A stretch of DNA of 64,000 bases. It comes from Candidatus Kaiserbacteria bacterium (GTDB lineage Bacteria; Patescibacteriota; Minisyncoccia; Phycocordibacterales; UBA918). Under the pieces are notes generated by a model. It was given only the letters and a program-made list of their open reading frames with translations. It did no database searches and was not told the origin of the DNA. Shown here piece after piece: positions 2,934 to 59,735 of the stretch (positions within the stretch are counted from its first letter, which is position 1; each line of letters begins with the position of its first letter). The position numbers and the translations under genes were made by a program. The stretch is from contig JANPCG010000013.1 in the NCBI GenBank assembly GCA_031430855.1, positions 26,347 to 90,346 of the forward strand. Reading direction: 5' to 3'.

Positions 2934-3995
2934 TTATTTACCTCTCCCAAACGCGGTTTTCAAAGCGGCAACGTGTTCGGCGTAGGTTTCAGTGCAGGTA
3001 AATGCGCCGTCATTAGTATGAAAGTAAAAGAGGCAGTTCGTGTCTCGGGGATTGAGGGCGGCAATGATAGCATCAATTGAAGGGTTGGCAATTGGTCCTG
3101 GAGGGAGACCAGCTTTTTTGTAGGTGTTGTAAGGGGATTCGATGGCTTTATCAGCGGGTATTGGTACGGGCCACCAGTTGGCAAGGTTGGGTGTTTTTTT
3201 GTTTGTGCTCTTGGCATATTGCATAGTAGCATCGAGTTGAAGACGCATATCAATAAAGAGTCGGTTCCAAATAATGCCAGAAATGTAGCGCATATCTTCA
3301 AAGTCATACGCCTCGCGTTCAATTAAAGACGCGATAATAAGCGCGTCGCGCAGCGGTACTACTGCTTCAATGTCACTACTGTAGCGAGACCGAACTTCTG
3401 CATTAAATCGGTCGGCAATCACGCGAGCCACGGTATCTCCGTCGGCATTTTTATCGACGACATACGTTCCTGGATACAGTTTTCCATCAGCGAGGACTGG
3501 TACCTCACTTTCAATTTGCTCTAAAAAAAGTGTTTGCTCAACCTTATTCCAACCTAATATTTTGGTGAAATTGGCAATAACTTCTTCTTTTCGTTGTCCC
3601 GATTCAATTACGAGTACGCGACTAATTGGAGAAGCGAGGTTTTGATACCAATCCATCAATGCTAGGCGGGCCACCAATCTAGTTCGCCAACTATTTTCTA
3701 GTGTTGGTGGGGTGTAATTAGAGGCAACATAGGTATTGAGATAGGTTTCTATGTCAGGGTTTTCGGTAACTGTTTTTGTCTCCGGATCAACCCCAATTGG
3801 AAATATACGTGAATTTATTTCAACGCCACTCATTTTTGTAATGGGCATCTCACCTATGGCTGTTGTTTTAGTGCCAATTAAAAATACTAACCCAATCGTG
3901 ACGAGTACAGAGAGAAGTACCGCCAACCAAATTAGTGGTCGCCAGTACCAGCCAAGTAGTTTGGTTTGTGGCTTTGCATTAAAACTAGGTCGCAT
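2934..3995 (-). CDS. mltG: Endolytic murein transglycosylase MltG (YceG-like)
   Basis: N-terminal TM anchor. YceG motifs (YNTYKKAGLPPGPIANPSIDAIIAALNP). Confidence 0.8.
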   Translation of the reverse strand: MRPSFNAKPQTKLLGWYWRPLIWLAVLLSVLVTIGLVFLIGTKTTAIGEMPITKMSGVEINSRIFPIGVDPETKTVTENPDIETYLNTYVASNYTPPTLENSWRTRLVARLALMDWYQNLASPISRVLVIESGQRKEEVIANFTKILGWNKVEQTLFLEQIESEVPVLADGKLYPGTYVVDKNADGDTVARVIADRFNAEVRSRYSSDIEAVVPLRDALIIASLIEREAYDFEDMRYISGIIWNRLFIDMRLQLDATMQYAKSTNKKTPNLANWWPVPIPADKAIESPYNTYKKAGLPPGPIANPSIDAIIAALNPRDTNCLFYFHTNDGAFTCTETYAEHVAALKTAFGRGK

Positions 3996-5395: not shown

Positions 5396-6385
5396 ATGGG
5401 AGAAAATACAGAAACTAATAAAACACAGACTGACAGTACTACCAGTGGATCAACTCCTGAATTGGAAACGGAAGTGACGTCAACTGAAACCTCTTCAAAT
5501 CCAGGAGATGTTACTAGTTCCTCGTCTGATACAGAAATCAATACACAGGTTCCTGTACCAGATGTAACTGAATCTGCCGAACCAGTTGTTACGGAAGAAG
5601 TTGCATCTGAAGAAGTGGCGCCTATTACCACTGCCGAAGTTGCACCAGAGGCTAGTTCACCAGAGTTGTCAAACGTACGTCAGCGAGTAATTACCCAGTA
5701 TGCCATCGCAACTATTATTATTTTGGTTATGGGAGCAGGACTTTTGTATGCACTTGAAGAGCAGGGTCGAGTATCAACAGGAGTGTTTGATTCTGTTACC
5801 GAATTAGTTAAGCCTGCGCCTGCAGCGGCTATTGTTAATGGGGTAAAAATTCCATTAGCACAATACGAAAAGAATCGAGAGCAGCTTATCCAAACTGCTA
5901 CCCTGCAAGGACTTGATCCAACCAATGAAAGTATCGCTACTCAAATTAACGCGCAAGCTTTAGATGTGCTCGTGAACACTGAGTTGCTTCGTCAGGCTGC
6001 TCTGGCTGACGGAATTACGGTGACGAAAGAGGATATCGATACTCGATATGAAGAAATTGTAGCTACCTTAGGCGGCGAAGAGCAGCTTGCAACTAAAATG
6101 ACCGAGCTCAACATTACTCCGGAAAGCTTACGGGTTGATATTGAAGGTGAAATCTTAATTAAAAAACACCTCGATACAGCGGTTGACCTAAGTTCTGTCA
6201 CTATCGATCAAAAGGAAGTGCAAGCGGTGTATGATCAGGCTAATACACCAGGAGCTGATATTCCACCATTCGCTGAAGTAAAAGCTCAAATTGAAGCTCA
6301 GCTAAAAGCGACGAAAGAACAAGAGAAAATTGGTAAATACATTGAAACTTTAAAAACAGAGGCTGAGATTGAAACGAAGATTTAA
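5396..6385 (+). CDS. Membrane-anchored protein with S/T/E-rich N-terminus and SurA-N/PpiD-like chaperone domain
   Basis: ORF with low-complexity N-terminus, one TM segment and a periplasmic-chaperone-like C-terminal region. Confidence 0.35.
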   Translation: MGENTETNKTQTDSTTSGSTPELETEVTSTETSSNPGDVTSSSSDTEINTQVPVPDVTESAEPVVTEEVASEEVAPITTAEVAPEASSPELSNVRQRVITQYAIATIIILVMGAGLLYALEEQGRVSTGVFDSVTELVKPAPAAAIVNGVKIPLAQYEKNREQLIQTATLQGLDPTNESIATQINAQALDVLVNTELLRQAALADGITVTKEDIDTRYEEIVATLGGEEQLATKMTELNITPESLRVDIEGEILIKKHLDTAVDLSSVTIDQKEVQAVYDQANTPGADIPPFAEVKAQIEAQLKATKEQEKIGKYIETLKTEAEIETKI

Positions 6386-19861: not shown

Positions 19862-20133
19862 CCGCGTACAGAAAGCCCCGCAAGGGGCTATTTCTGTACC
19901 CGGTGCTTGGGGAGTAAAGCGCCTGCGCGCTTTACGTGCGGGCTCGAAAGGCGCAGACATGTGTTGCTCGTAAGAGCAACAAGTCGAGCCGGGGTCGCGA
20001 ACACTTTGTAGATTATGAGCGTAGCGAAATAATGTACTTAGTGATTCGTGACCGGGCCCACCCCACAAGGGGCTATTTCTGTACCCGGTGCTTGAGGAGC
20101 AACTTACTAATATCAGTTGCGTGCGGGTGAGGA

Positions 20134-20210: not shown

Positions 20211-20272
20211 TCGGCGCGTCGGGGTCGAGAGTACTTACTAGAATTAGAGCCGAAGGCGAACAAATATAGTTA

Positions 20273-20301
20273 GGCAAAACATAATGGGATTATGTTTTGC
20301 C
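20273..20301 (+). terminator. Hairpin ending the non-coding region upstream of the NUDIX gene
   Basis: ggcaaaacataat-ggga-ttatgttttgcc. Confidence 0.4.
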
Positions 20302-34230: not shown

Positions 34231-34321
34231 GGTCACGAATCACTAAGTATATTTGTTCACTGCGTTCCAAATCTACTAAGTGTTCTCGACCCGAGAAACA
34301 GTGTTTAGACACTGTTTCTCC
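34231..34321 (+). repeat. Modular intergenic repeat, units A+B
   Basis: A-unit: ggtcacgaatcactaagtatatttgttcactgcgttccaaatctactaagtgttctcgaccc. B-unit hairpin: gagaaacagtg-tttagac-actgtttctcc. The units recur at 56.7 kb, 57.1 kb and 36.4-36.7 kb. Confidence 0.55.
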
Positions 34322-34380
34322 GACGGTTTCTTTTTTCTATAAATGAAAAAGAAACATCGCTGCGGTTATCACAACGGCCC

Positions 34381-34447: not shown

Positions 34448-34830
34448 GCCGTTGTGTTCCCACGGGTAATGATCCTGACGGTCACCAAGCTATATTTTTT
34501 CATTTCATTCAAAATCTAGCAGGTGCCGCGGGACACGCCTCATTCATAGCAAAGCTATATCATTCCGGCGTTTCGATTACCGCAAAAGACACGCAGATGT
34601 CTTTTTCGTGGGATCACGCAACAAAAACGGCATTCACAGATGTGAATGCTCGTTTTTGTACGCGTGATCCCACGGGTAATCGAAACCCGATTTTCAGGAT
34701 GAAAACCTGATGTCCTAACCGTTAGACGATGGGACCCTAATTCCTAGGGTTTGTAACTTCATTCCTTAGGTGCGCACTATAATACCAAAAAAGTCAAAAA
34801 AAGCTAGTCATAAGGACAAGTTTTCTCTGT

Positions 34831-34870
34831 TGCGGAAGCGAGAGGATTCGAACATTACATGTTCGGTACA
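34831..34870 (-). repeat. Partial direct copy of the tRNA-Ser 3' end (23 nt) plus conserved junction palindrome
   Basis: tgcggaagcgagaggattcgaac matches 34953-34975 exactly. It is followed by ATTACATGTTCGGTACA, forming GAACAT-TAC-ATGTTC. Confidence 0.6.
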
Positions 34871-34954
34871 CCTTTCGTATCGTACCCACTCCGTTCCGTG
34901 CGATGTACTTAAGGTCTTCAAATCCTCTTTTGAAACTGACGTTTCAAATTCCTG

Positions 34955-35042
34955 CGGAAGCGAGAGGATTCGAACCTCCGAGGAGCTTTCACCCCTGCCG
35001 CTTTTCGAGAGCGGTACCTTCAGCCAGCTCAGACACGCTTCC
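34955..35042 (-). tRNA. tRNA-Ser (anticodon CGA)
   Basis: Class-II tRNA. Acceptor GGAAGCG/CGCTTCC, anticodon arm ccgct-ctCGAaa-agcgg, long variable arm, T-loop GGTTCGAATCC. Confidence 0.85.
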
Positions 35043-36425: not shown

Positions 36426-36487
36426 GGTCACAAGTTACTAACCATAATCATTCGCTACGCTCTGATTCTAGTAAGTACTTGCGACCC
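36426..36487 (+). repeat. A-unit repeat copy (36.4 kb, a)
   Basis: ggtcacaagttactaaccataatcattcgctacgctctgattctagtaagtacttgcgacccc. Confidence 0.5.
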
Positions 36488-36603
36488 CGGCGGGCTGGTT
36501 CAGGGCATTAGTAATAGCCCTTCACATCGCTCCGCCTCGCCGTTCCGGCTTCTTGCTAGTCAAAACTTATTTAAGTTTTGATCGACGCAAGAAAGCCGGC
36601 ACC

Positions 36604-36665
36604 GGTCACGAGTCACTAATCATAATGGTTCGTTTCACTCCCCTTCTGATAAGTGCTCGCGACCC
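36604..36665 (+). repeat. A-unit repeat copy (36.6 kb, b), in the ftsZ 3' region
   Basis: ggtcacgagtcactaatcataatggttcgtttcactccccttctgataagtgctcgcgacccc. The terminal stem covaries with copy a (caag/cttg versus cgag/ctcg). Confidence 0.5.
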
Positions 36666-36715
36666 CGCCTTGCTGTCTCGGCTTCGCCTCGTATCGCTGC
36701 GGCCGGCAGTGCCTT

Positions 36716-54676: not shown

Positions 54677-56191
54677 ATGGATACGAAAGGGTCTAATCCG
54701 AAGCGAATTACCTCTGTGTACTATGATGGGAGCTGTCCAATGTGTACGGCGTTTGTGGGAGCTACCGCGGCCAAAGACGAGACCTTATTTGCACTCCATG
54801 ATGTCATCATTGATTCACTGCCTGCAGACTTCACCAGAGAAGCGGTCCTGAAGGAAATGCATGTCGTTGGTGCCGATGGGACAGTATATACCAACGCCGA
54901 GGCGATACTGCAGATATTAGATACGGTGCAGTATTGGCGACGAATCACCTGGATTGGACGACTGCCGGTGGTGCGGAATGTATTGCCGGTGGGGTACGGT
55001 ATTGTGGCGCGTAACCGACACTTTATTTTCGGACCCGCGAGCCGGTTGTTTTGGGTGAAGAATGTCGCTTTGCTGGGGCTACTCTCCAGTATGGCGCTGT
55101 CGTTTCCTTTGTGGGTGCAAACGGATAGTATTGCAGCGGTACCTGTCTTTGGTCGACTTCCAATTCTCTCACCGTTAATTGAATGGGGAATGTATATAGG
55201 GGTGTTTTGTTTAGCCTTGGTTAGTTTGATTTCGCCTAGGCCACAGCGTTACTTGTGTGGACTATTGGGTATTGTGGCGGTATTTGTACTGTTTGATCAA
55301 TTGCGTCTTCAGCCATGGCTCTATCAGTATTGGTTTATGCTACTGCCACTTGCTGTGTATTCGTGGCAGTGGCGAGATAGGGTATCGACGAATGCGGTTC
55401 TCAATACCCTCCGGATTTTAATTGCGGGGATATATTTTTATAGTGGGCTACAGAAAATTAACCCAATGTTTTTCCAAGAGGTGTTTCCCTGGATGGTAGA
55501 ACCAATTGCCGCGTTTCTCCCGACCTCTCTTAATTTAATACCAGCGAGTTTTGGATTATTTGTCCCGTTTATTGAAATAGGGATTGGTATAGGATTGCTT
55601 ACAAAACGATTTAGGTTTGCTGCTTTGGTTGGAGTTATTTGCATGATGGTATTCGTTCTCATCACACTTGGACCTCTTGGTTATGGTTGGAATAGTGTCG
55701 TCTGGCCATGGAATTTAGCTATAGCGGCGTCAGCGTGGCTGTTGTATTACAAGACCGCTAATGTTTCTTTTAAAAACGTATTTAGAGTAAGGCACTTTCT
55801 GCCTCATAAAGTAATCATTTTACTTTTTCTTGTAATGCCTGCCTTCAGCTTTTTTGGGTATTGGGATTCGTACCCATCCTATTCGTTGTATTCGGGGAAC
55901 ATAACTGACGCCCAAGTATTCGTATCATCTAAATTGGTAAGTCCAGCTTTAGAAAATGCAGCGTTTTTAGCTTATGGTGGTATGGTCTGGATAGACCTCC
56001 AGACACTTTCGTTTAATGAACGTAATGTGCCGATGTATCCTGAGACAAGAATCTACACGAAAGTATTTGCTCAGCTATGTGAGACTGAGTTGCCAGTCAC
56101 GGCTGAACTCGTCGTGACGACCAAAACCACGTTGCTGCAACCCCAGAGAGAATTACGGTATAAGTGTGAAAATATGTTGAGTAGTGATTGA
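54677..56191 (+). CDS. DCC-family thiol-disulfide oxidoreductase (DUF393) fused to an HTTM-like polytopic membrane domain
   Basis: N-terminal VYYDGSCPMC (DCC motif), then ~10 TM helices rich in Trp and Tyr. Confidence 0.5.
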   Translation: MDTKGSNPKRITSVYYDGSCPMCTAFVGATAAKDETLFALHDVIIDSLPADFTREAVLKEMHVVGADGTVYTNAEAILQILDTVQYWRRITWIGRLPVVRNVLPVGYGIVARNRHFIFGPASRLFWVKNVALLGLLSSMALSFPLWVQTDSIAAVPVFGRLPILSPLIEWGMYIGVFCLALVSLISPRPQRYLCGLLGIVAVFVLFDQLRLQPWLYQYWFMLLPLAVYSWQWRDRVSTNAVLNTLRILIAGIYFYSGLQKINPMFFQEVFPWMVEPIAAFLPTSLNLIPASFGLFVPFIEIGIGIGLLTKRFRFAALVGVICMMVFVLITLGPLGYGWNSVVWPWNLAIAASAWLLYYKTANVSFKNVFRVRHFLPHKVIILLFLVMPAFSFFGYWDSYPSYSLYSGNITDAQVFVSSKLVSPALENAAFLAYGGMVWIDLQTLSFNERNVPMYPETRIYTKVFAQLCETELPVTAELVVTTKTTLLQPQRELRYKCENMLSSD

Positions 56192-56200
56192 GATAAATAT

Positions 56201-56236
56201 AAATAAATCCCTCATAAGAACGAGGGATTTATTTTT
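56201..56236. terminator. Bidirectional terminator
   Basis: aaataaatccctc-ataagaacg-agggatttattt. Confidence 0.55.
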
Positions 56237-56353
56237 ATGAGAGTAACACGAAGAGAGTGCGCGCGTGCGAGGTGACGGGGGCACCGCGCAAGACCATTTG
56301 AGCTTATTTTGACCGAAGGGAGTAAATGAGCCAAATGGTATACAGCTTCGGTA

Positions 56354-56386
56354 CGAAGAGGACTTGAATCTTACAGATTCTGTACA
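56354..56386 (-). repeat. Degenerate partial copy of the tRNA-Leu(TAG) 3' end plus covarying junction palindrome
   Basis: gaagaggacttgaatc, compared with the tRNA's gagaggacttgaacc. It is followed by TTACAGATTCTGTACA, forming GAATCT-TAC-AGATTC. Confidence 0.5.
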
Positions 56387-56432
56387 CCTTTTGGATATAT
56401 TCTCCCGCCGGTCGAATCTATCGCAAAAGGTT

Positions 56433-56485
56433 TTGAAACAGTTTCCCAAACTGTTTCAACCTCCACGGATTGCTCCATTAGTTCC
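56433..56485 (-). repeat. Perfect 12-bp hairpin plus a 28-nt exact copy of an internal tRNA-Leu(TAG) segment
   Basis: ttgaaacagttt-ccca-aactgtttcaa. aacctccacggattgctccattagttcc matches 56528-56555 exactly. Confidence 0.5.
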
Positions 56486-56509
56486 ATTTTGTTTGTAAAC
56501 CTTTCAAAG

Positions 56510-56591
56510 TGCGCGCGAGAGGACTTGAACCTCCACGGATTGCTCCATTAGTTCCTAAGACTAACGCGGCTACCAATTACGCCACACGCGC
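56510..56591 (-). tRNA. tRNA-Leu (anticodon TAG)
   Basis: Class-II tRNA. Acceptor GCGCGTG/CGCGCGC (one G-U pair), anticodon arm ttagt-ctTAGga-actaa, long variable arm, T-loop GGTTCAAGTCC. Confidence 0.85.
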
Positions 56592-56672
56592 ACTTTGAAA
56601 ACTTTACTGTGTCGACGAGTATAGCATGAAAATAGGGGTTTGCCAGGGTTGGTGGTCGCACCAAGATTCTGT

Positions 56673-56767
56673 GGTCACAGATAATTTCTTTCATAAATTT
56701 CCGCGACCCGAGAAACAGTGTTTAGACACTGTTTCTCCCACTGTCGCAGGGCGACATGTCTCCGTCT
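56673..56767 (+). repeat. Modular intergenic repeat, units A'(short)+B+C
   Basis: ggtcacagataatttctttcataaatttccgcgaccc + gagaaacagtgtttagacactgtttctcc + cactgtcgcagggcgacatgtctccgtct. Confidence 0.55.
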
Positions 56768-56780
56768 CGCACCAGAGCAC

Positions 56781-56845
56781 GTATCTGCCGCAGGGCAGAT
56801 ACCAAACAATAAATACCATTCATTTGAATGGTATTTTATTGTTTG
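56781..56845 (-). terminator. GCAG-loop hairpin plus 19-bp perfect hairpin terminator of tRNA-Lys
   Basis: gtatctgcc-GCAG-ggcagatac, then caaacaataaataccattc-attt-gaatggtattttattgtttg. Confidence 0.55.
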
Positions 56846-56848
56846 CTC

Positions 56849-56924
56849 TGGTGCGCCCTCAAGGATTCGAACCTTGGACCGTCTCCTTAAGAGGGAGCTA
56901 CTCTACCAACTGAGTTAAGGGCGC
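56849..56924 (-). tRNA. tRNA-Lys (anticodon CTT), CCA encoded
   Basis: Acceptor GCGCCCT/AGGGCGC, D-loop AGTTGGTA, anticodon loop ctCTTaa, T-loop GGTTCGAATCC, 3' ACCA. Confidence 0.8.
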
Positions 56925-57000
56925 ATTGCTATGTATTAGTACATACGACCCGGCGTTCTTAATGAGGGCAAAGTGCATGGGATGCAGTTTGCGCGACACT

Positions 57001-57020
57001 ACTGAGTTAAGGGTGCAATG
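57001..57020 (-). repeat. Partial copy of the tRNA-Lys 5' acceptor/D-arm segment
   Basis: actgagttaagggtgcaatg, compared with actgagttaagggcgcattg at 56909-56928 (18 of 20 identical). Confidence 0.45.
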
Positions 57021-57090
57021 TATTAAGTTGTGGGCCAAAGTGTACAAGATTATGACCAAATTAACAAGGTATTAGTAGGGGCGTGACTTG

Positions 57091-57186
57091 GTCGCAAATC
57101 ACTAAGTATATTTGTTCACTTCGTTCCAAATTTACTAAGTGTTTGCGACCCCGACTCAACTGTCGCAGAGCGACATGTTTCCGTCT
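57091..57186 (+). repeat. Modular intergenic repeat, units A+C
   Basis: ggtcgcaaatcactaagtatatttgttcacttcgttccaaatttactaagtgtttgcgacc + caactgtcgcagagcgacatgtttccgtct. Confidence 0.55.
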
Positions 57187-57299
57187 TTCAAGTCCCGCAC
57201 GCAAGCAAAGCAGTTTGCTTGCTCCCCGGCACAAAATACAACTACCGCAAGCTATTGCTTGCGGTAGTTGTATTTTGTGCCGGGGAGCGGGACTTGAAC
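57187..57299. repeat. ~110-nt palindrome made of two inverted copies of the tRNA-Leu(TAA) T-arm/acceptor 3' segment around a perfect 19-bp hairpin
   Basis: Left arm ttcaagtcccgc[gcaagcaaa-GCAG-tttgcttgc]tccccggcac. Centre aaaatacaactaccgcaagc-tatt-gcttgcggtagttgtatttt. Right arm gtgccggggagcgggacttgaa. Confidence 0.55.
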
Positions 57300-57316
57300 A
57301 TTACATGTTCGGTACA
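57277..57316 (-). repeat. Partial direct copy of the tRNA-Leu(TAA) 3' end (23 nt) plus junction palindrome
   Basis: gtgccggggagcgggacttgaac, compared with the tRNA's gtgccgggagcgggacttgaac. It is followed by ATTACATGTTCGGTACA. Confidence 0.6.
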
Positions 57317-57429
57317 GGTTGTCGCCACTTTACTTCGCTTCCAGCTCATAAAGTTGCAGGCAACCTTTTCAAGTCCCTGGGGCAAATGCAAAAACTCCCC
57401 AGATAAAAATCTGAAGAGTTTTTACATTG

Positions 57430-57513
57430 TGCCGGGAGCGGGACTTGAACCCGCACGGGCTTGCGCCCACAAAATTTTAAGTCTTGCGTGGCTACCGATT
57501 ACACCATCCCGGC
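57430..57513 (-). tRNA. tRNA-Leu (anticodon TAA)
   Basis: Class-II tRNA. Acceptor GCCGGGA/TCCCGGC, anticodon arm caaga-ctTAAaa-ttttg, variable arm with a GCAA tetraloop, T-loop GGTTCAAGTCC. Confidence 0.85.
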
Positions 57514-57618
57514 ACTGACTTTTTTATGGAATCTTCCGTTACACGGACCGTATCCGTTGTCGCTATATTATTTCACTTCGTTCATAATCTAGCAGCCAAC
57601 AGCTTCGATTCCCTTGTC

Positions 57619-57662
57619 ATATCTAAAACAAAACATAAAGAAATATGTTTTGTTTTAGATAT
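57619..57662 (-). terminator. Perfect 19-bp hairpin terminator abutting the tRNA-Cys 3' end
   Basis: atatctaaaacaaaacata-aagaaa-tatgttttgttttagatat. Confidence 0.55.
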
Positions 57663-57663
57663 G

Positions 57664-57735
57664 AGACCGGGACGGGAATCGAACCCGTGCATCGAGGTTT
57701 TGCAAACCACTGCGTTACCGCTTCGCCACCCGGTC
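57664..57735 (-). tRNA. tRNA-Cys (anticodon GCA)
   Basis: Acceptor GACCGGG/CCCGGTC, anticodon loop ttGCAaa, T-loop GGTTCGATTCC, discriminator U. One U.U mismatch in the anticodon stem. Confidence 0.75.
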
Positions 57736-57779
57736 TTATTTGGATGTGATCTACTGTAGCATTTTTGTCTGAGTTAGAC

Positions 57780-57820
57780 AAAACAAACCTGGGTGCGTCA
57801 TATCGCACCCAGGTTTGTTT
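57780..57820. terminator. Bidirectional terminator (rbfA 3' end)
   Basis: aaacaaacctgggtgcg-tcatat-cgcacccaggtttgttt. Confidence 0.6.
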
Positions 57821-57821
57821 A

Positions 57822-58229
57822 TTATTCAGCTGTAGGCTTCTCGCGGCCGGCGTCAAGGAGGCCTTCAATCACTTCTTCGGTTGATTTATCATGGTCAATT
57901 TCGCGCGCGATTTCATCAATGTGTTGGCGGTGCTTTTCTCCGTAATCATAGGCAAATTCGAGGTGGGGAATAATTTTGAGGTTACTTTTCTTTTTTACAA
58001 AACCACGCATCTCGCCGGCTGAACGCTTGAGGAATACTAAGGCATCTGATTCACGACCATCAGGGATGGTAGTGACGTACACGGTAACACGCCGATAGTC
58101 AGGGGAAACCGTTACGTGCGTCACGGTAATCATGGGATTCGTGTTCGCTTCTTGTTGAATGAATTTCGCTACAATCTCTTTAATGAGTGAAGCGGCACGG
58201 TCGTGACGATCGAAGGCAGGAGTGTTCAT
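57822..58229 (-). CDS. rbfA: Ribosome-binding factor A
   Basis: KH-like RbfA pattern (RVTVYVTTIP...). Immediately downstream of infB. Confidence 0.8.
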   Translation of the reverse strand: MNTPAFDRHDRAASLIKEIVAKFIQQEANTNPMITVTHVTVSPDYRRVTVYVTTIPDGRESDALVFLKRSAGEMRGFVKKKSNLKIIPHLEFAYDYGEKHRQHIDEIAREIDHDKSTEEVIEGLLDAGREKPTAE

Positions 58230-58235
58230 AAGAGA

Positions 58236-59735
58236 TTACGTTATCACAATTTCAAAGCCTTCGATAAGATCGCCGGGGGCGATTTCGGTTTTAGAATCAA
58301 CCTGCATACCAAATTCGCTCTCAGATACCTGCTTCACATCTGATTTTTGTTGCTGTAGGTTTTTAATCACTCCTCGCCCAACTTCAATATCACGGCGGGT
58401 GATGAGAACGCTCTGACCTAATTTCATAATGCCGTCCTCGACCCGAGCTCCTAGTACGTGTGTATATTTTTGGGTACTGAAATGTTTGATAACCTTCGCG
58501 TGACCAGTGACGACGCGCTCTTCCATCTTTGGGGTACGGTTTTTAAGTGCCGTATTAAGCCAATCGGACAATTCATAAATAATCGAAAAGGTGTCAATTT
58601 CTACTCCCTGACGTTCTGCGAGGTCTACTGCCGCTCGGTCGACAGTAACATTAAAGCCAACGATAATAGCGTCTTTTGTTGCGCTCACATTGCGGACGTC
58701 ACTTTCTGAAATTGAACCAACTCCAGTATCAATCACTCGGACAGAAATGCGATCTGATTCGAAGTTACCGAGTTCGTAGAGAATGGCATCAATCGTGCCG
58801 AGCATATCAGCTTTAATCAAGATTGGAATGGTTGGGAGATTGGTTTTTTTGTGGGTCACAATTGGAGCTGCATCAGTTCCGGAAATTGCCGATTCGGCTT
58901 CTTTTTTAGAGTCCACTGTGTAGAACGTGCTGCCGGCTTTTGGAATGCTATTAAAACCAACAATCCCAACCGGAGTAGAGAGCCCGGCCTCTTTGAGACT
59001 TTTTCCATTACTGTCTTCCATGATACGTACGGGAGCAAAGCTGTGTCCCGAAACCACAAACTGTCCTGCCTTGAGGGTACCGTTCGTGACAATAAGAGTA
59101 GCGGTATTGCCGCGTTTTGGATCAAGATTTCCGTCGATGATGGTTCCAGTGGCCGCTGCGTTTAGGTCTCCGGTGAGTTCTCCCAAGTCTGCAGCTAAAA
59201 TAATCAAATCGAGTAAATCACTTACACCGGCACCGGTTTTAGCTGAAATTGCTGCCCAGGGAATATCCCCCCCCATCCCTTCGATGTAAATTTCATTTTC
59301 AATGAGACTCGCTTGAGTCCGAGGAATGTCGGCTCCTGGTTTATCCATTTTGTTAATGGCAACAATCATCGGAATACCAGCGGCTTTAATGGATTCAAGC
59401 GCCTCAAGTGTCTGTGGCTTAACTCCGTCTTCAGCGGAAACGACTAATATGGCAATATCAGCCACGTCAGCGCCTCGGAGACGCATTTTTTGGAACGCAG
59501 CATGACCGGGAGTATCGAGAAATGTGATGCTTTCAGTAGCTCCGTCTTTAGTAGTATGAGGAACCACGTAGGCTGAGAGGTGTTGGGTGATGCCGCCGGC
59601 TTCACCATCTACCACATTACTCTTTCGGATATAGTCCAAAAGGGTTGATTTTCCGTGGTCAATATGACCCATAACCACCACAATAGGTGGCCGTTTGGTG
59701 ATTGCGGGTGCTGCAGTTTTTGTTTTTTTCGCCAT
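58236..59735 (-). CDS. infB: Translation initiation factor IF-2 (short form, ~499 aa)
   Basis: GTPase G1 [25 protein letters not shown], plus domains II-IV. No long N-terminal extension. Confidence 0.9.

What the first reader, a model, noticed from the sequence alone, without database searches (positions are those of the whole stretch)
57187..57513. tRNA-Leu(TAA) locus has a direct 3'-end copy with the same junction motif, plus an inverted copy forming a ~110-nt palindrome
tRNA-Leu(TAA) occupies 57430-57513 on the minus strand. About 130 nt downstream is a 23-nt copy of its 3' end (57277-57299, with one extra G) abutting ATTACATGTTCGGTACA (57300-57316), identical to the Ser-locus junction. 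A few nt further on, a second, inverted copy of the T-arm/acceptor segment (57187-57232) carries an inserted GCAG-loop hairpin. The two copies face each other across a perfect 19-bp hairpin (57233-57275). The result is a long palindrome of tRNA-derived sequence. The intervening 57301-57428 segment contains yet another gggacttgaa fragment and a terminator-like hairpin. This nesting of direct and inverted tRNA 3'-end fragments could reflect repeated insertion or excision events at the site. Alternatively it could be a structured processing or termination element built from tRNA-like sequence.
Basis: seen in the sequence. Interest (0 to 1): 0.7.

Follow-up and report, generated by a model that had tools for sequence, protein, structure and literature searches.

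The report
Nested insertion modules behind tRNA-Leu
The tRNA-Leu fragments and the palindrome are real; they are two nested copies of a widespread small structured element, which I could not find described, that sits at the 3' ends of tRNA and other genes in ultra-small Patescibacteria and carries both a copy and an antisense copy of the gene end it sits behind.

Summary
It is not peculiar to this locus: 8 of the 9 tRNA genes in the window, and ftsZ, are followed by the same kind of unit. Read in the direction of the host gene, a unit has five parts: a terminator hairpin; one or two segments antisense to the last 10-22 nt of the host gene, often split by a 9-bp hairpin with an invariant CUGC loop (GCAG on the + strand); a conserved folded core; and a second direct copy of the gene's 3' end. 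tRNA-Leu(TAA) carries a short unit nested in front of an older long unit. The core helices covary strongly and are strand-specific. The core motif gave 76 genome loci, almost all Patescibacteria, and 114 metagenome stretches. In the metagenome set 86 cores lie just downstream of a co-directional tRNA and none lies behind an opposed one. Units are present or absent between close relatives, stack in tandem and decay with distance from the gene, so they behave as insertion elements. No transposase, integrase or reverse transcriptase travels with them, no Rfam family matches, and five literature searches found nothing. How they insert is unknown; pairing between the antisense segment and the target is my leading, unproven guess.

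The parts
57429..57513 (-). tRNA-Leu(TAA) gene, the host gene. Its last ~23 nt (57429-57451) are called 'X_A' here.
   Evidence: ARAGORN; Rfam tRNA, 55.7 bits.
57385..57428 (.). Hairpin T1, terminator-like, immediately after the tRNA. It is the first part of the younger, short unit.
   Evidence: I5: 20-nt arms, 85% complementary, 4 nt between them. Retained in L077 and L078.
57366..57377 (-). Antisense ('guide') segment of the short unit. On the minus strand it reads GGGACTTGAAAA, the reverse complement of the tRNA's T-loop plus T-stem 3' strand.
   Evidence: exact GGGACTTGAA at 57368-57377, minus strand. It is one of the two 11-nt repeats that bound the 181-nt strain polymorphism.
57317..57365 (-). 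Core of the short unit: a closing helix GGTTGCC/GGCGACAACC around a hairpin of the P2 type (P2 is the inner helix of the core).
   Evidence: D2: 71% identical to the short unit behind tRNA-Cys (57539-57579). Same layout as the short units in L001, L006, L043 and L051.
57300..57316 (-). Terminal hairpin motif of the short unit (TGTACCGAACATGTAAT on the minus strand).
   Evidence: two exact copies, the other at 34854-34870 behind tRNA-Ser. Variants CTTACAGnnnCAGTAC end the short units in L001, L006, L043, L051 and L057, and a variant lies at window 56372-56385 (D1/D6).
57277..57299 (-). X_B: a direct copy of the tRNA's 3' end (T-loop to ACA) with one extra C. I read it as the former 3' end, displaced by the short unit.
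   Evidence: 57277-57301: 2 substitutions, 1 insertion, D9 (17 nt exact).
57233..57275 (.). Hairpin T2: a 19-bp perfect stem with A-run and T-run arms. It is the terminator-like hairpin of the older, long unit and the centre of a perfect palindrome with 32-nt arms (57221-57288).
   Evidence: I1; folds.
57223..57233 (-). Guide segment 2 of the long unit: antisense to the acceptor 3' strand, discriminator and CA. It shares the extra base with X_B.
   Evidence: I1. The same position in the Phe, Val and Glu units matches their own tRNAs.
57201..57222 (-). 9-bp hairpin with a CUGC loop (GCAG on the + strand) that splits the guide.
   Evidence: In one search, 31 of 70 units have a perfect hairpin of at least 7 bp with a CTGC loop, 59-79 nt before the core in all but one case; 19 different stems are among those tallied.
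57187..57198 (-). Guide segment 1 of the long unit: antisense to the T-loop plus T-stem 3' strand (GCGGGACTTGAA on the minus strand).
   Evidence: I18: 12 nt, 100% complementary to 57438-57449.
57158..57186 (-). P3 arm of the long unit: the conserved AGACGGAAACATGT followed by a variable hairpin (GTCGC/GCGAC).
   Evidence: D4: 93% identical to 56740-56767, the unit behind tRNA-Lys. Alignments.
57090..57157 (-). Conserved core of the long unit, made of an outer helix (P1) and an inner helix (P2).
   Evidence: Covariance model R1: 93 bits on the minus strand against 35 bits on the plus strand. Covariation.
57075..57089 (-). X_C: a decayed third copy of the tRNA's 3' end (AAGTCACGCCCCTAC on the minus strand), directly after the long core.
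   Evidence: In the predicted fold it pairs with guide segments 1 and 2.
34832..34953 (-). A young short unit behind tRNA-Ser(CGA): hairpin, guide GAGGATTTGAA, core, the same 17-nt terminal motif, and an exact copy of the tRNA's 3' end.
56592..56848 (-). A long unit behind tRNA-Lys(CTT). Here the hairpin with the CUGC loop comes before the guide GCTCTGGTGCG. The related species L086 has only 19 nt at this position.
   Evidence: (I15, I16, D4).
19864..20053 (+). A long unit behind tRNA-Phe, which lies on the + strand. The core is at 19986-20053, and a second, weaker core lies at 20216-20286.
   Evidence: 91.1 and 28.3 bits.
36426..36671 (-). Two tandem units directly after the stop codon of the ftsZ gene (cores at 36604-36671 and 36426-36493).
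   Evidence: 74.6 and 76.1 bits; FtsZ Pfam domains.

Best explanation
The locus is a stack of two units of a repeated, non-coding, structured insertion element that colonises the 3' ends of genes in Patescibacteria, mainly tRNA genes.

Read in the direction of the host gene, a unit has four parts:
1. A terminator-like hairpin (T) placed directly after the gene's last bases (called X here).
2. One or two 'guide' segments that are the reverse complement of X. For a tRNA these correspond to the acceptor 3' strand and the T-stem 3' strand plus T-loop. They are often separated by a 9-bp hairpin with an invariant CUGC loop.
3. A conserved folded core. In the long type this is a P3 arm plus the nested helices P1 and P2. 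The P2 tip could form two G.A pairs and a C(GWA)G triloop. The short type lacks P3 and ends in the motif TGTACnGAAnnTGTAA.
4. A second, direct copy of X.

A new unit enters at the gene/terminator boundary. Equivalently, it enters within the T-loop while bringing a replacement 3' end. The tRNA therefore stays intact and terminated, and the old 3' end and any older unit are pushed downstream, where they decay.

At tRNA-Leu(TAA) the order on the minus strand is: tRNA, T1, short unit, old 3' end (57277-57299), T2, guide/hairpin/guide, long unit, decayed third copy. This accounts for the direct copy, the shared 17-mer, the inverted copy with its GCAG hairpin, the palindrome and the extra GGGACTTGAA.

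Shown: the architecture, its recurrence, its strand, and its turnover between relatives.

Inferred: that the guide chooses the target by base pairing with X (as RNA or as folded single-stranded DNA); that insertion duplicates X; and that the unit is moved by a factor encoded elsewhere, or by uptake of foreign DNA plus recombination.

My confidence by step: nested units of one family, about 0.95; insertional or mobile, about 0.75; guide-directed targeting, about 0.3.
For: Recurrence within the window. Units of this design follow Phe, Val, Glu (two units), Ser, Leu(TAG) (two), Lys, Leu(TAA) (two), Cys and ftsZ (two).

Distribution. The core motif gave 76 loci in GTDB species genomes, almost all Patescibacteria, and 114 metagenome stretches. 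In the metagenome set, 86 of 144 cores have a co-directional tRNA within 320 nt upstream and none has an opposed one. Eighteen isotypes are represented. In the genome set, 42 motif hits lie within 300 nt of a tRNA in that same relative orientation.

Structure. Twenty-two core pairs were counted on 56 copies. On the strand that runs with the host gene, 97.9% of cells form standard pairs. The covariation score is 0.315 against 0.136 for shuffles (0 of 500 reach it), and 10 pairs change on both sides. The opposite strand gives 92.6%, because about 70 G.U cells become A.C. As RNA, the host-direction strand folds better in 73 of 77 copies. R1 scores 93 bits against 35 bits on the two strands.

Matched segments. 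The 20 nt after the core have an exact direct match of at least 8 nt within 260 nt upstream in 43% of units (control 5.6%), and an exact inverted match in 34% (control 6.5%). A perfect hairpin with a CTGC loop precedes 31 of 70 cores, with 19 different stems among those tallied.

Turnover.
- The related species L086 has the same tRNA order but only 19 nt between Lys and Leu(TAG), against 257 nt in the window, and about 60 nt after Leu(TAG). Behind tRNA-Cys it has a long unit where the window has a short one, with a different terminator hairpin.
- Strains of the same species differ by a 181-nt block bounded by the 11-nt repeat GGGACTTGAAA.
- In L061 and L039 the distal copy of X is followed by the hairpin and guide of a still older unit.
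- The guide matches the tRNA end better than the distal copy does in 30 cases against 9.

The hairpin T travels with the unit. By eye, the T of the window's Lys unit resembles the T of the Ala(GGC) units in L011 and L044.
Against: - No transposase, integrase or reverse transcriptase is linked to the units. Clustering of ORFs within 600-900 nt of the cores gave only housekeeping genes. Pfam found no such protein among the 17 window ORFs scanned, of the 67 ORFs of at least 130 aa in the window. The agent of mobility is therefore unknown.
- No clean filled-versus-empty pair from one population was found. The one strain-level difference (181 nt) is best read as a deletion between repeats. The empty Lys site comes from a different species (RbfA, the ribosome-binding factor A protein, 87% identical).
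- Each copy carries a guide matched to its own neighbour, so guides must be rewritten on moving to a new gene. I have no demonstrated mechanism for this.
- Some units lack a recognisable guide (L002).
- Units sit behind ftsZ in three genomes and behind the same kinds of genes in several. The core is highly conserved (89% mean column identity), although that sample was chosen with an exact 25-nt pattern. This would also fit a vertically kept, host-useful element.
- No expression data exist, so 'RNA' rests only on G.U asymmetry, which folded single-stranded DNA could also explain.
Confidence: 0.6

Rival explanations
1. A host-beneficial, vertically inherited 3'-end module. In this reading the unit is a terminator/insulator or RNA-processing cassette. 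The hairpin T ends the upstream transcript. In read-through RNA the antisense segment clamps onto the gene's 3' end to make a long duplex, for example an RNase III site or a block to exonucleases. The conserved core binds a host protein. Copies would arise by local duplication, and differences between species would reflect loss.
For: - Every unit starts with a hairpin that has A-rich and U-rich arms, placed directly after the gene.
- Complementarity between the guide and the gene end is kept, while the distal copy decays.
- Units follow ftsZ in three genomes, and in several contigs the gene upstream of a unit is a conserved housekeeping gene; the translations look like ribosomal proteins and EF-G, but Pfam was not run on those.
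- The core sequence is strongly conserved and shows strand-specific constraint.
- Strain-level changes in the P2 helix are compensatory.
- A promoter-like site for tRNA-Leu(TAG) lies at the far end of the Lys unit, whereas L086 has only a 19-nt spacer and no unit there.
Against: - A second direct copy of the gene end has no role in this model.
- Units stack, with the freshest next to the gene and decayed ones further out.
- Different unit types and different terminator hairpins occupy the same tRNA in close relatives, and some orthologous sites are empty.
- The strict terminator scan recognised only one of these hairpins.
Confidence: 0.22
2. The same insertion element, but the folded, functional form is single-stranded DNA recognised by a recombinase. 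The analogies are integron attC sites and the end hairpins of IS200/IS605. It would not be an RNA.
For: - Strand-specific helices with a conserved mismatch and a conserved bulge are the kind of feature that marks the active strand of attC sites and IS608 ends (from my own knowledge of those systems).
- The newest unit lies next to the anchor site, as in cassette arrays.
- No promoter was found for the unit.
Against: - No integron integrase or Y1 (HUH) transposase turned up near any unit.
- G.U-type wobble at a fixed position in 46 of 56 copies, and loops that could form tandem G.A pairs, are more typical of RNA.
- attC sites conserve shape rather than sequence, whereas this core is sequence-conserved.
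Confidence: 0.12
3. Scars (attL/attR) of ordinary integrase-driven genomic islands or prophages that integrated into tRNA genes and were later deleted, leaving duplicated tRNA 3' ends.
For: Direct repeats that run from the T-loop to the 3' end of a tRNA are the classic signature of tyrosine-integrase elements. Tandem accretion at tRNA genes is known for such elements (my own knowledge).
Against: - The repeats enclose only 100-250 nt, with a conserved non-coding core shared by units behind tRNAs of 18 isotypes and behind protein genes.
- There is no integrase nearby.
- Internal antisense segments and a hairpin with an invariant loop are not features of att sites.
- The motif is absent from 2.9 million viral contigs.
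Confidence: 0.04
4. An assembly artefact: palindromic fold-back or repeat collapse in a metagenome-assembled genome.
For: One NCBI contig of the same species ends in a fold-back of the tRNA at this exact point (L079). The short Logan contigs seen end close to these loci.
Against: The flanks, the T1 hairpin and the long unit are identical in two independent ENA assemblies. The same architecture, with locus-specific sequences, occurs in more than 200 cores from unrelated assemblies. The 11-nt repeat at the strain difference is too short to cause k-mer collapse.
Confidence: 0.02

Closest known systems
Integrative elements that target tRNA genes with tyrosine integrases, including non-autonomous remnants (CIMEs) and tandem accretion
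   Same: Insertion is at the T-loop or 3' end of tRNA genes. The tRNA is restored by a carried copy of its 3' end. The displaced 3' end is left as a direct repeat. Successive elements stack at one tRNA.
   Different: Units are 100-250 nt, non-coding and have no integrase. They have a conserved, covarying, strand-specific fold and an internal antisense copy of the target. They also sit behind protein-coding genes, and they bring their own terminator hairpin.
Bacterial class C group II introns (IIC)
   Same: They lie just after terminator hairpins, in the orientation of the upstream gene. The target is recognised partly by base pairing between internal element segments and the flanking upstream sequence (EBS-IBS pairing).
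   Different: There is no match to the group II intron model or to any other Rfam family. The size is about 70-200 nt rather than 600 nt or more. There is no reverse-transcriptase ORF. The flanking target is duplicated, which introns do not do.
IS110/IS1111 elements with bridge or seek RNAs
   Same: A structured non-coding RNA encoded by the element carries programmable segments, split around a stem, that are complementary to the insertion site.
   Different: No DEDD/serine recombinase gene lies in or near the units. There are no separate donor and target loops. A 10-40 nt duplication flanks the unit rather than a 2-nt core. Guides differ from copy to copy within one genome.
REP/REPIN/BIME elements and MITEs (small non-autonomous repeats in intergenic regions)
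   Same: Many short, non-coding, hairpin-rich copies per genome, concentrated at the 3' ends of genes. There is no coding capacity, and they are presumably moved in trans.
   Different: There are no terminal inverted repeats and no fixed short target duplication. Each copy contains locus-specific segments (antisense plus direct copy of the neighbouring gene end). Orientation relative to the upstream gene is strict (86 to 0).
Integron gene-cassette arrays and attC sites
   Same: A folded single strand with conserved unpaired bases. Arrays grow at one anchor point, with the newest unit nearest the anchor.
   Different: There is no integron integrase or attI. The core is conserved in sequence. 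The anchor is whichever gene end the unit's own internal segment matches.

Membership tests
tRNA gene or pseudogene | Cloverleaf detectable by tRNA finders | tested here: not met
   ARAGORN and Rfam call only the 9 intact tRNAs. None of the fragments at 57187-57299 or 34832-34857 is called.
Any curated RNA family (Rfam 15) | A covariance-model match at or near the gathering score | tested here: not met
   The gathering-threshold search of the whole window gave only tRNAs. At E <= 10 over 56200-57800, only chance hits to microRNA-hairpin models fell on the palindromes, and nothing fell on the core.
Tyrosine-integrase island att sites | Direct repeats of the tRNA 3' end flanking the element | tested here: met
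   57277-57299 against 57429-57451, and 34832-34857 against 34954-34980. Many related loci show the same.
Tyrosine-integrase island att sites | An integrase gene, or a kilobase-scale island, between the repeats | tested here: not met
   The repeats enclose about 100-250 nt with no ORF. No integrase family appears among neighbouring ORFs.
MITE | Terminal inverted repeats matching those of a parent IS | tested here: not met
   A unit begins with a locus-specific hairpin and ends with GTGACC (long type) or TGTAC..TGTAA (short type), with no terminal inverted repeats. An IS with an rve transposase in L089 shares only 10-11-nt strings with unit motifs.
MITE | A short target-site duplication of fixed length | tested here: not met
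   The flanking repeats range from about 10 to about 40 nt and equal the end of the neighbouring gene.
Group II intron (class C) | Catalytic domains V/VI and the six-domain fold | tested here: not met
   No group II intron family appears among the Rfam matches. The core is 68 nt with two nested helices.
Group II intron (class C) | Position just after a terminator hairpin, in the sense orientation | tested here: met
   The layout is hairpin T, then the unit, always co-directional with the upstream gene.
IS110-family bridge RNA | An adjacent IS110-type recombinase gene | tested here: not met
   No recurrent recombinase lies near about 260 cores.
IS110-family bridge RNA | Internal segments complementary to the insertion site | tested here: met
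   An exact inverted match of at least 8 nt between the flank and the unit interior occurs in 34% of units against 6.5% of controls.
Intrinsic terminator | A GC-rich stem followed by a T-run | tested here: inconclusive
   The hairpins have A-run and T-run arms and look bidirectional by eye. The strict scan flagged only the Lys hairpin and one other in 56100-57900.
TIGR-Tas guide arrays (reported in Parcubacteria) | Alternating 8-12-nt repeats with 9-nt spacers next to a Nop-domain gene | tested here: not met
   The array layout described in PMC12045711 does not resemble the 100-250-nt units. No such gene was seen nearby.

The most novel reading that the evidence does not exclude
The units are a self-contained insertion system guided by nucleic-acid pairing. 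A small structured RNA (or folded DNA strand) with one or two exchangeable 'guide slots', flanked by fixed hairpins, pairs with the last 10-22 nt of a gene and directs its own integration there. It duplicates the target and rewrites the slots when it lands at a new gene end, for example by copying across its own terminator hairpin. It does this without any element-encoded protein. This would be a programmable mobile element of a kind not yet described, operating in bacteria with minimal genomes.
Probability: 0.18. Interest if true: 0.95.

Novelty: new variant of a known kind. Interest (0 to 1): 0.78.

Why it matters
If these units are what they appear to be, Patescibacteria carry a very successful non-coding element. 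By my tally there are about 14 units in this 64-kb window, roughly 3-4% of the sequence. The element has found a way to live at the ends of essential genes without harming them: it brings its own terminator and a replacement gene end.

The locus-specific antisense segments set between fixed hairpins resemble guide slots. That makes a concrete, testable case for target recognition by base pairing in a new context.

There are also practical consequences:
- The units create long perfect palindromes that break and fold back metagenome assemblies at tRNA genes.
- They produce tRNA-end fragments that can confuse annotation.
- They offer a strand-specific 68-nt covariance model that marks this lineage.

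Even if the units turn out to be host-kept terminator or insulator cassettes, they would be a new conserved RNA structure behind most tRNA genes of a major bacterial radiation.

Tried and rejected
1. My first reading took the conserved motif as the sense strand of a small RNA gene convergent to the tRNA. G.U/A.C counts and folding energies reversed this: the folded strand runs with the tRNA.

2. Bacteroidetes-type or sigma-70 promoters inside the core, with each tRNA fragment having its own promoter. The best candidate (TAGATT, 18 nt, TATACT) has its two hexamers on opposite arms of the P2 helix, and the scan did not flag it. Not supported.

3. A retro-origin signature, meaning an encoded CCA that arrives with the unit. 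The window's tRNA-Lys (with a unit) has CCA and L086's (without) does not. Across 96 tRNAs, however, CCA is no commoner with units (8 of 49) than without (7 of 47).

4. A fold mimicking the acceptor and T arms of a tRNA, formed by the guide with the distal copy, as an RNase P/Z substrate. It is predicted for young tRNA-linked units. But the distal copy decays, and units behind protein genes have unrelated sequence there.

5. An H/ACA-like or box C/D-like guide RNA. There is no pocket of unpaired target bases and there are no box motifs. By eye only.

6. TIGR-Tas arrays and group I introns in Patescibacteria tRNA genes. Both are different objects.

7. The odd 'acceptor' of the fragment behind tRNA-Leu(TAG) (TTCGTACCGAAGC) as evidence of transfer from another tRNA. 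It is another copy of the terminal hairpin motif of the short unit.

8. An HTH protein with a LAGLIDADG-like stretch (my reading of the sequence; Pfam found only the HTH), seen in 14 loci near cores. It is tied only to tRNA-Gly(GCC), so this is synteny, not an element protein.

9. An IS with an rve transposase as the parent element. It is inserted beside one unit in one assembly and shares only short strings with unit motifs.

10. Viral origin. The motif is absent from the viral contig collection.

11. Three exact-protein look-ups returned nothing on record or only the window's own source contig. A second strain-level comparison at the Phe and Val loci could therefore not be made.
Full report
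**1. Checking the observation**

- tRNA-Leu(TAA) lies at 57429-57513 on the minus strand.
- A copy of its last ~23 nt lies at 57277-57299, with one extra base.
- The copy abuts ATTACATGTTCGGTACA (57300-57316). This 17-mer occurs exactly once more in the window, at 34854-34870, where it abuts a copy of the 3' end of tRNA-Ser(CGA). About 0.12 matches are expected by chance even with 3 mismatches allowed.
- The inverted copy (57187-57198, then 57223-57233) is split by the hairpin gcaagcaaa-GCAG-tttgcttgc.
- The central hairpin is part of a perfect palindrome with 32-nt arms, 57221-57288.
- Either strand of 57066-57280 folds about 11-12 standard deviations better than shuffled sequence.

**2. The locus is not special**

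Searching each tRNA's 3' end against the window, and reading the other loci, showed the same design behind Phe, Val, Glu, Ser, Leu(TAG), Lys and Cys. Only tRNA-Arg lacks it; an ORF starts directly after that gene.

Each case contains a conserved block of about 70 nt. A 25-nt degenerate pattern from that block gave these results:

| Collection | Result |
|---|---|
| One genome per GTDB species | 76 loci, almost all Patescibacteria (Kaiserbacteria, Paceibacteria/Parcubacteria, Yonathbacteria and MAGs labelled Saccharibacteria) |
| JGI metagenome contigs | 114 stretches |
| Viral contigs | none |

The window itself comes from a Patescibacteria MAG, GCA_043735715.1, contig JAYTDW010000013.1.

**3. 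Which strand is folded**

The block forms two nested helices, P1 (outer) and P2 (inner), with abundant compensatory changes. For example, one pair is A-U in 38 copies and G-C in 17, and another is G-C in 38 and U-A in 18.

- On the strand that runs with the neighbouring gene, 97.9% of 1232 cells are standard pairs. This includes a G.U at one position in 46 of 56 copies.
- On the other strand those cells become A.C, and pairing drops to 92.6%.
- As RNA, the host-direction strand folds better in 73 of 77 copies (mean -39.4 against -31.7 kcal/mol).
- A covariance model of the core (R1) scores 93 bits on that strand and 35 on the other for the copy next to tRNA-Leu(TAA).

In that orientation the P2 tip reads GA[RC-GWA-GY]GAA. 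By inspection, this could form two sheared G.A pairs and a triloop.

No Rfam family matches the core on either strand, even at E <= 10.

**4. Anatomy of a unit, in the host direction**

1. The last bases of the gene (X).
2. A hairpin T with A-rich and U-rich arms.
3. Segments that are the reverse complement of X.
4. A P3 arm, in the long type.
5. The P1/P2 core.
6. A second, direct copy of X.

For tRNAs, X runs from about position 56/57 of the T-loop to the discriminator plus CA or CCA. The antisense part is frequently split between the acceptor part and the T-arm part by a 9-bp hairpin with a CUGC loop.

A perfect hairpin of at least 7 bp with a CTGC loop precedes 31 of 70 cores. It lies 59-79 nt upstream in all but one tallied case (126 nt), and 19 different stems were counted. 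The next commonest tetraloop occurs 7 times.

A short type lacks P3, has a different closing helix and ends in TGTACnGAAnnTGTAA. That motif is the 'junction motif'.

The matching of unit segments to the neighbouring gene is statistical as well as anecdotal:

| Measure | Units | Controls |
|---|---|---|
| Exact direct match (>= 8 nt) of the 20 nt after the core, within 260 nt upstream | 43% | 5.6% |
| Exact inverted match (>= 8 nt) | 34% | 6.5% |

The element is not tRNA-specific.
- Two units follow the ftsZ stop codon in the window.
- ftsZ also carries units in L005 and L042, and other protein-coding genes do so elsewhere. In each case the antisense and direct segments match that gene's 3' region.

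Orientation is absolute. In the metagenome set, 86 cores have a co-directional tRNA within 320 nt upstream and none has an opposed one. Eighteen isotypes are represented.

**5. Reading the Leu(TAA) locus with this key (minus strand)**

| Coordinates | Part |
|---|---|
| 57513-57429 | tRNA-Leu(TAA) |
| 57428-57385 | hairpin T1 |
| 57377-57366 | guide GGGACTTGAAAA of the short unit |
| 57365-57317 | short core |
| 57316-57300 | terminal motif of the short unit |
| 57299-57277 | former 3' end of the tRNA (X_B) |
| 57275-57233 | hairpin T2 |
| 57233-57223 | guide 2 of the long unit |
| 57222-57201 | hairpin with the CUGC loop |
| 57198-57187 | guide 1 of the long unit |
| 57186-57158 | P3 arm |
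| 57157-57090 | long core |
| ~57089-57075 | decayed third copy of the 3' end |

The extra base shared by X_B and guide 2, inside a perfect 32-nt palindrome, suggests that these two arms were made from, or corrected against, each other.

**6. Evidence that units come and go**

- A related species (L086; RbfA, the ribosome-binding factor A protein, 87% identical) has the same order Cys-Leu(TAA)-Lys-Leu(TAG). It has only 19 nt between Lys and Leu(TAG), where the window has a 257-nt spacer holding a unit, and about 60 nt after Leu(TAG). Behind tRNA-Cys it has a long unit where the window has a short one, with a different hairpin T.
- By eye, the hairpin T of the window's Lys unit resembles the T of the Ala(GGC) units in other genomes. 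T therefore appears to belong to the unit and not to the host gene.
- In young copies the distal copy of X is exact, and it is followed by the hairpin and guide of an older unit (L061, L039). Tandem pairs occur behind Glu, Phe and ftsZ in the window.
- Guides match the tRNA end better than the distal copies do, in 30 cases against 9. The newest unit therefore sits next to the gene, and older material decays outward.
- Two other assemblies of the same species lack a 181-nt block: the short core, X_B, T2, guide 2 and the hairpin with the CUGC loop. The block is bounded by the 11-nt repeat GGGACTTGAAA. This is a real polymorphism, most simply a deletion between the two guide copies.
- Between strains, the P2 region of the Cys and Glu units differs at many positions, with compensatory changes, while the flanking tRNAs are identical.

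**7. What moves them**

This is unknown.
- ORFs within 600-900 nt of about 260 cores were clustered. Only housekeeping families recur.
- The one recurrent oddity is an HTH protein with a LAGLIDADG-like stretch (my reading; Pfam found only the HTH). It is tied to tRNA-Gly(GCC) alone.
- Pfam found no such protein among the 17 window ORFs scanned, of the 67 ORFs of at least 130 aa in the window.
- An IS with an rve transposase is inserted exactly at the end of the Glu unit's core in one assembly. It shares only 10-11-nt strings with unit motifs.
- Encoded CCA does not track units, so there is no retro-copy signature.

**8. Interpretation**

I conclude that the finding is a nested pair of units from a family of non-autonomous, structured elements that target gene 3' ends.

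The steps shown are the architecture, its strand, its covariation, its distribution, its orientation rule, its stacking and its turnover.

The steps inferred are three. The antisense segment selects the site by pairing with the gene end. Insertion duplicates that end. The unit's own hairpin keeps the host gene terminated.

The weakest point is how each copy comes to carry a guide for its own neighbour. Copying or correction across the unit's hairpin would do it, and the perfect X-T-antisense palindromes hint at that. This is speculation.

The main rival is a host-kept terminator or insulator cassette. It explains the hairpin, the maintained clamp and the conservation, but not the second direct copy, the stacking, or the empty orthologous sites.

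**9. Comparison with known systems**

The units behave like integrase-type tRNA-targeting elements (restored 3' end, displaced repeat, accretion). They are positioned like class C group II introns. They resemble IS110 bridge RNAs and group II introns in having internal segments complementary to the target. They resemble REP elements and MITEs in being small, numerous and non-coding. They fail at least one defining test for each of these (see the membership table).

Five literature searches in the held library found no description of them. That library is incomplete, so prior description cannot be excluded.

Noticed in passing
window 56925-57030 (minus strand); also L086 4120-4231: Upstream of tRNA-Lys(CTT) there is a second copy of the gene's promoter-proximal sequence and first ~16 nt (57001-57020 against 56909-56928, 90%; 57014-57025 against 56927-56938). 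A hairpin lies between the copy and the real gene. The same arrangement is conserved in the related species. It looks like a different small insertion, this time at the 5' end of a tRNA gene.
   Followed up: partly
window 56455-56485 and 56525-56555: A 31-nt internal piece of tRNA-Leu(TAG), covering the anticodon-stem 3' side, the variable arm and the start of the T arm, is duplicated (97%) just downstream of the gene, ahead of the short unit's hairpin. At least two decayed short units and the original gene end plus native terminator follow (about 56256-56201).
   Followed up: partly
L089 7482-8506 (same species, ENA ERZ27315211): An IS of about 1 kb with an rve-type DDE transposase (ends TGTCC...GGACA) is inserted exactly after the core of the Glu unit, and the contig continues into different genes. 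Its end shares CATGTAATGT with the short unit's terminal motif and TGTCTAAACAC with the P3 hairpins at about window 56710-56737 and 34300-34330. This could be chance or a relationship.
   Followed up: partly
window 57564-57591 against L078 about 3630-3670; window 34505-34535 against L089 7430-7460: Between strains whose flanking tRNAs are identical, the P2 hairpin of a unit differs at 8-10 positions with compensatory changes (ATTAT/ATAAT or ATTTT/AAAAT becoming ATTGT/ACAAT). This suggests gene conversion among units or very fast constrained evolution.
   Followed up: partly
L079 3800-3930; ends of the Logan contigs L081-L085 and L095-L097: Assemblies break or fold back at these loci. One NCBI contig ends as tRNA, hairpin, reverse-complemented tRNA. 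Several short-read contigs stop a few hundred nt after rbfA or about 830 nt before the gene at window 30096, i.e. close to tRNA-Val. Many metagenome hits also lie within 100 nt of a contig end.
   Followed up: partly
window 56646-56618 (minus strand): A promoter-like site with a TG-extended -10 (CTGGCA, 17 nt, TATACT) lies at the distal end of the Lys unit, just ahead of tRNA-Leu(TAG). In L086 the two tRNAs are 19 nt apart with no unit. A unit that brings a terminator may therefore also bring, or require, a new promoter for the next gene.
   Followed up: no
L111, L112, L118, L124, L143, L161, L162, L204, L207, L211, L028, L104: A gene for a ~220-aa protein lies 5-30 nt upstream of tRNA-Gly(GCC), co-directional, in many Patescibacteria contigs. 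It has an N-terminal HTH (Pfam HTH_23) and a stretch that looks LAGLIDADG-like to me but was not detected by Pfam. Two tandem paralogues occur in L111 and L161. It may be a free-standing homing-endonuclease-like gene.
   Followed up: partly
L068 276-300; L047 about 5823-5847: A hairpin carrying the same P2 loop motif, but with different surrounding helices, lies directly upstream of dnaK (overlapping its start codon) and of mraZ in two MAGs labelled Saccharibacteria. Its orientation is opposite to that of the units. The P2 hairpin may be a module used in other contexts.
   Followed up: no
window 58236-59735: Translation initiation factor IF-2 is only 499 aa, so it lacks the long N-terminal region of most bacterial IF-2 proteins. 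Most tRNA genes here do not encode the full CCA end.
   Followed up: no
L118, L009 and seven other loci: A UPF0102/YraN-type nuclease gene lies just downstream of units in 9 loci. This is probably conserved synteny with a tRNA gene, but it is a nuclease of the Holliday-junction-resolvase fold and may deserve a look as a host factor.
   Followed up: no
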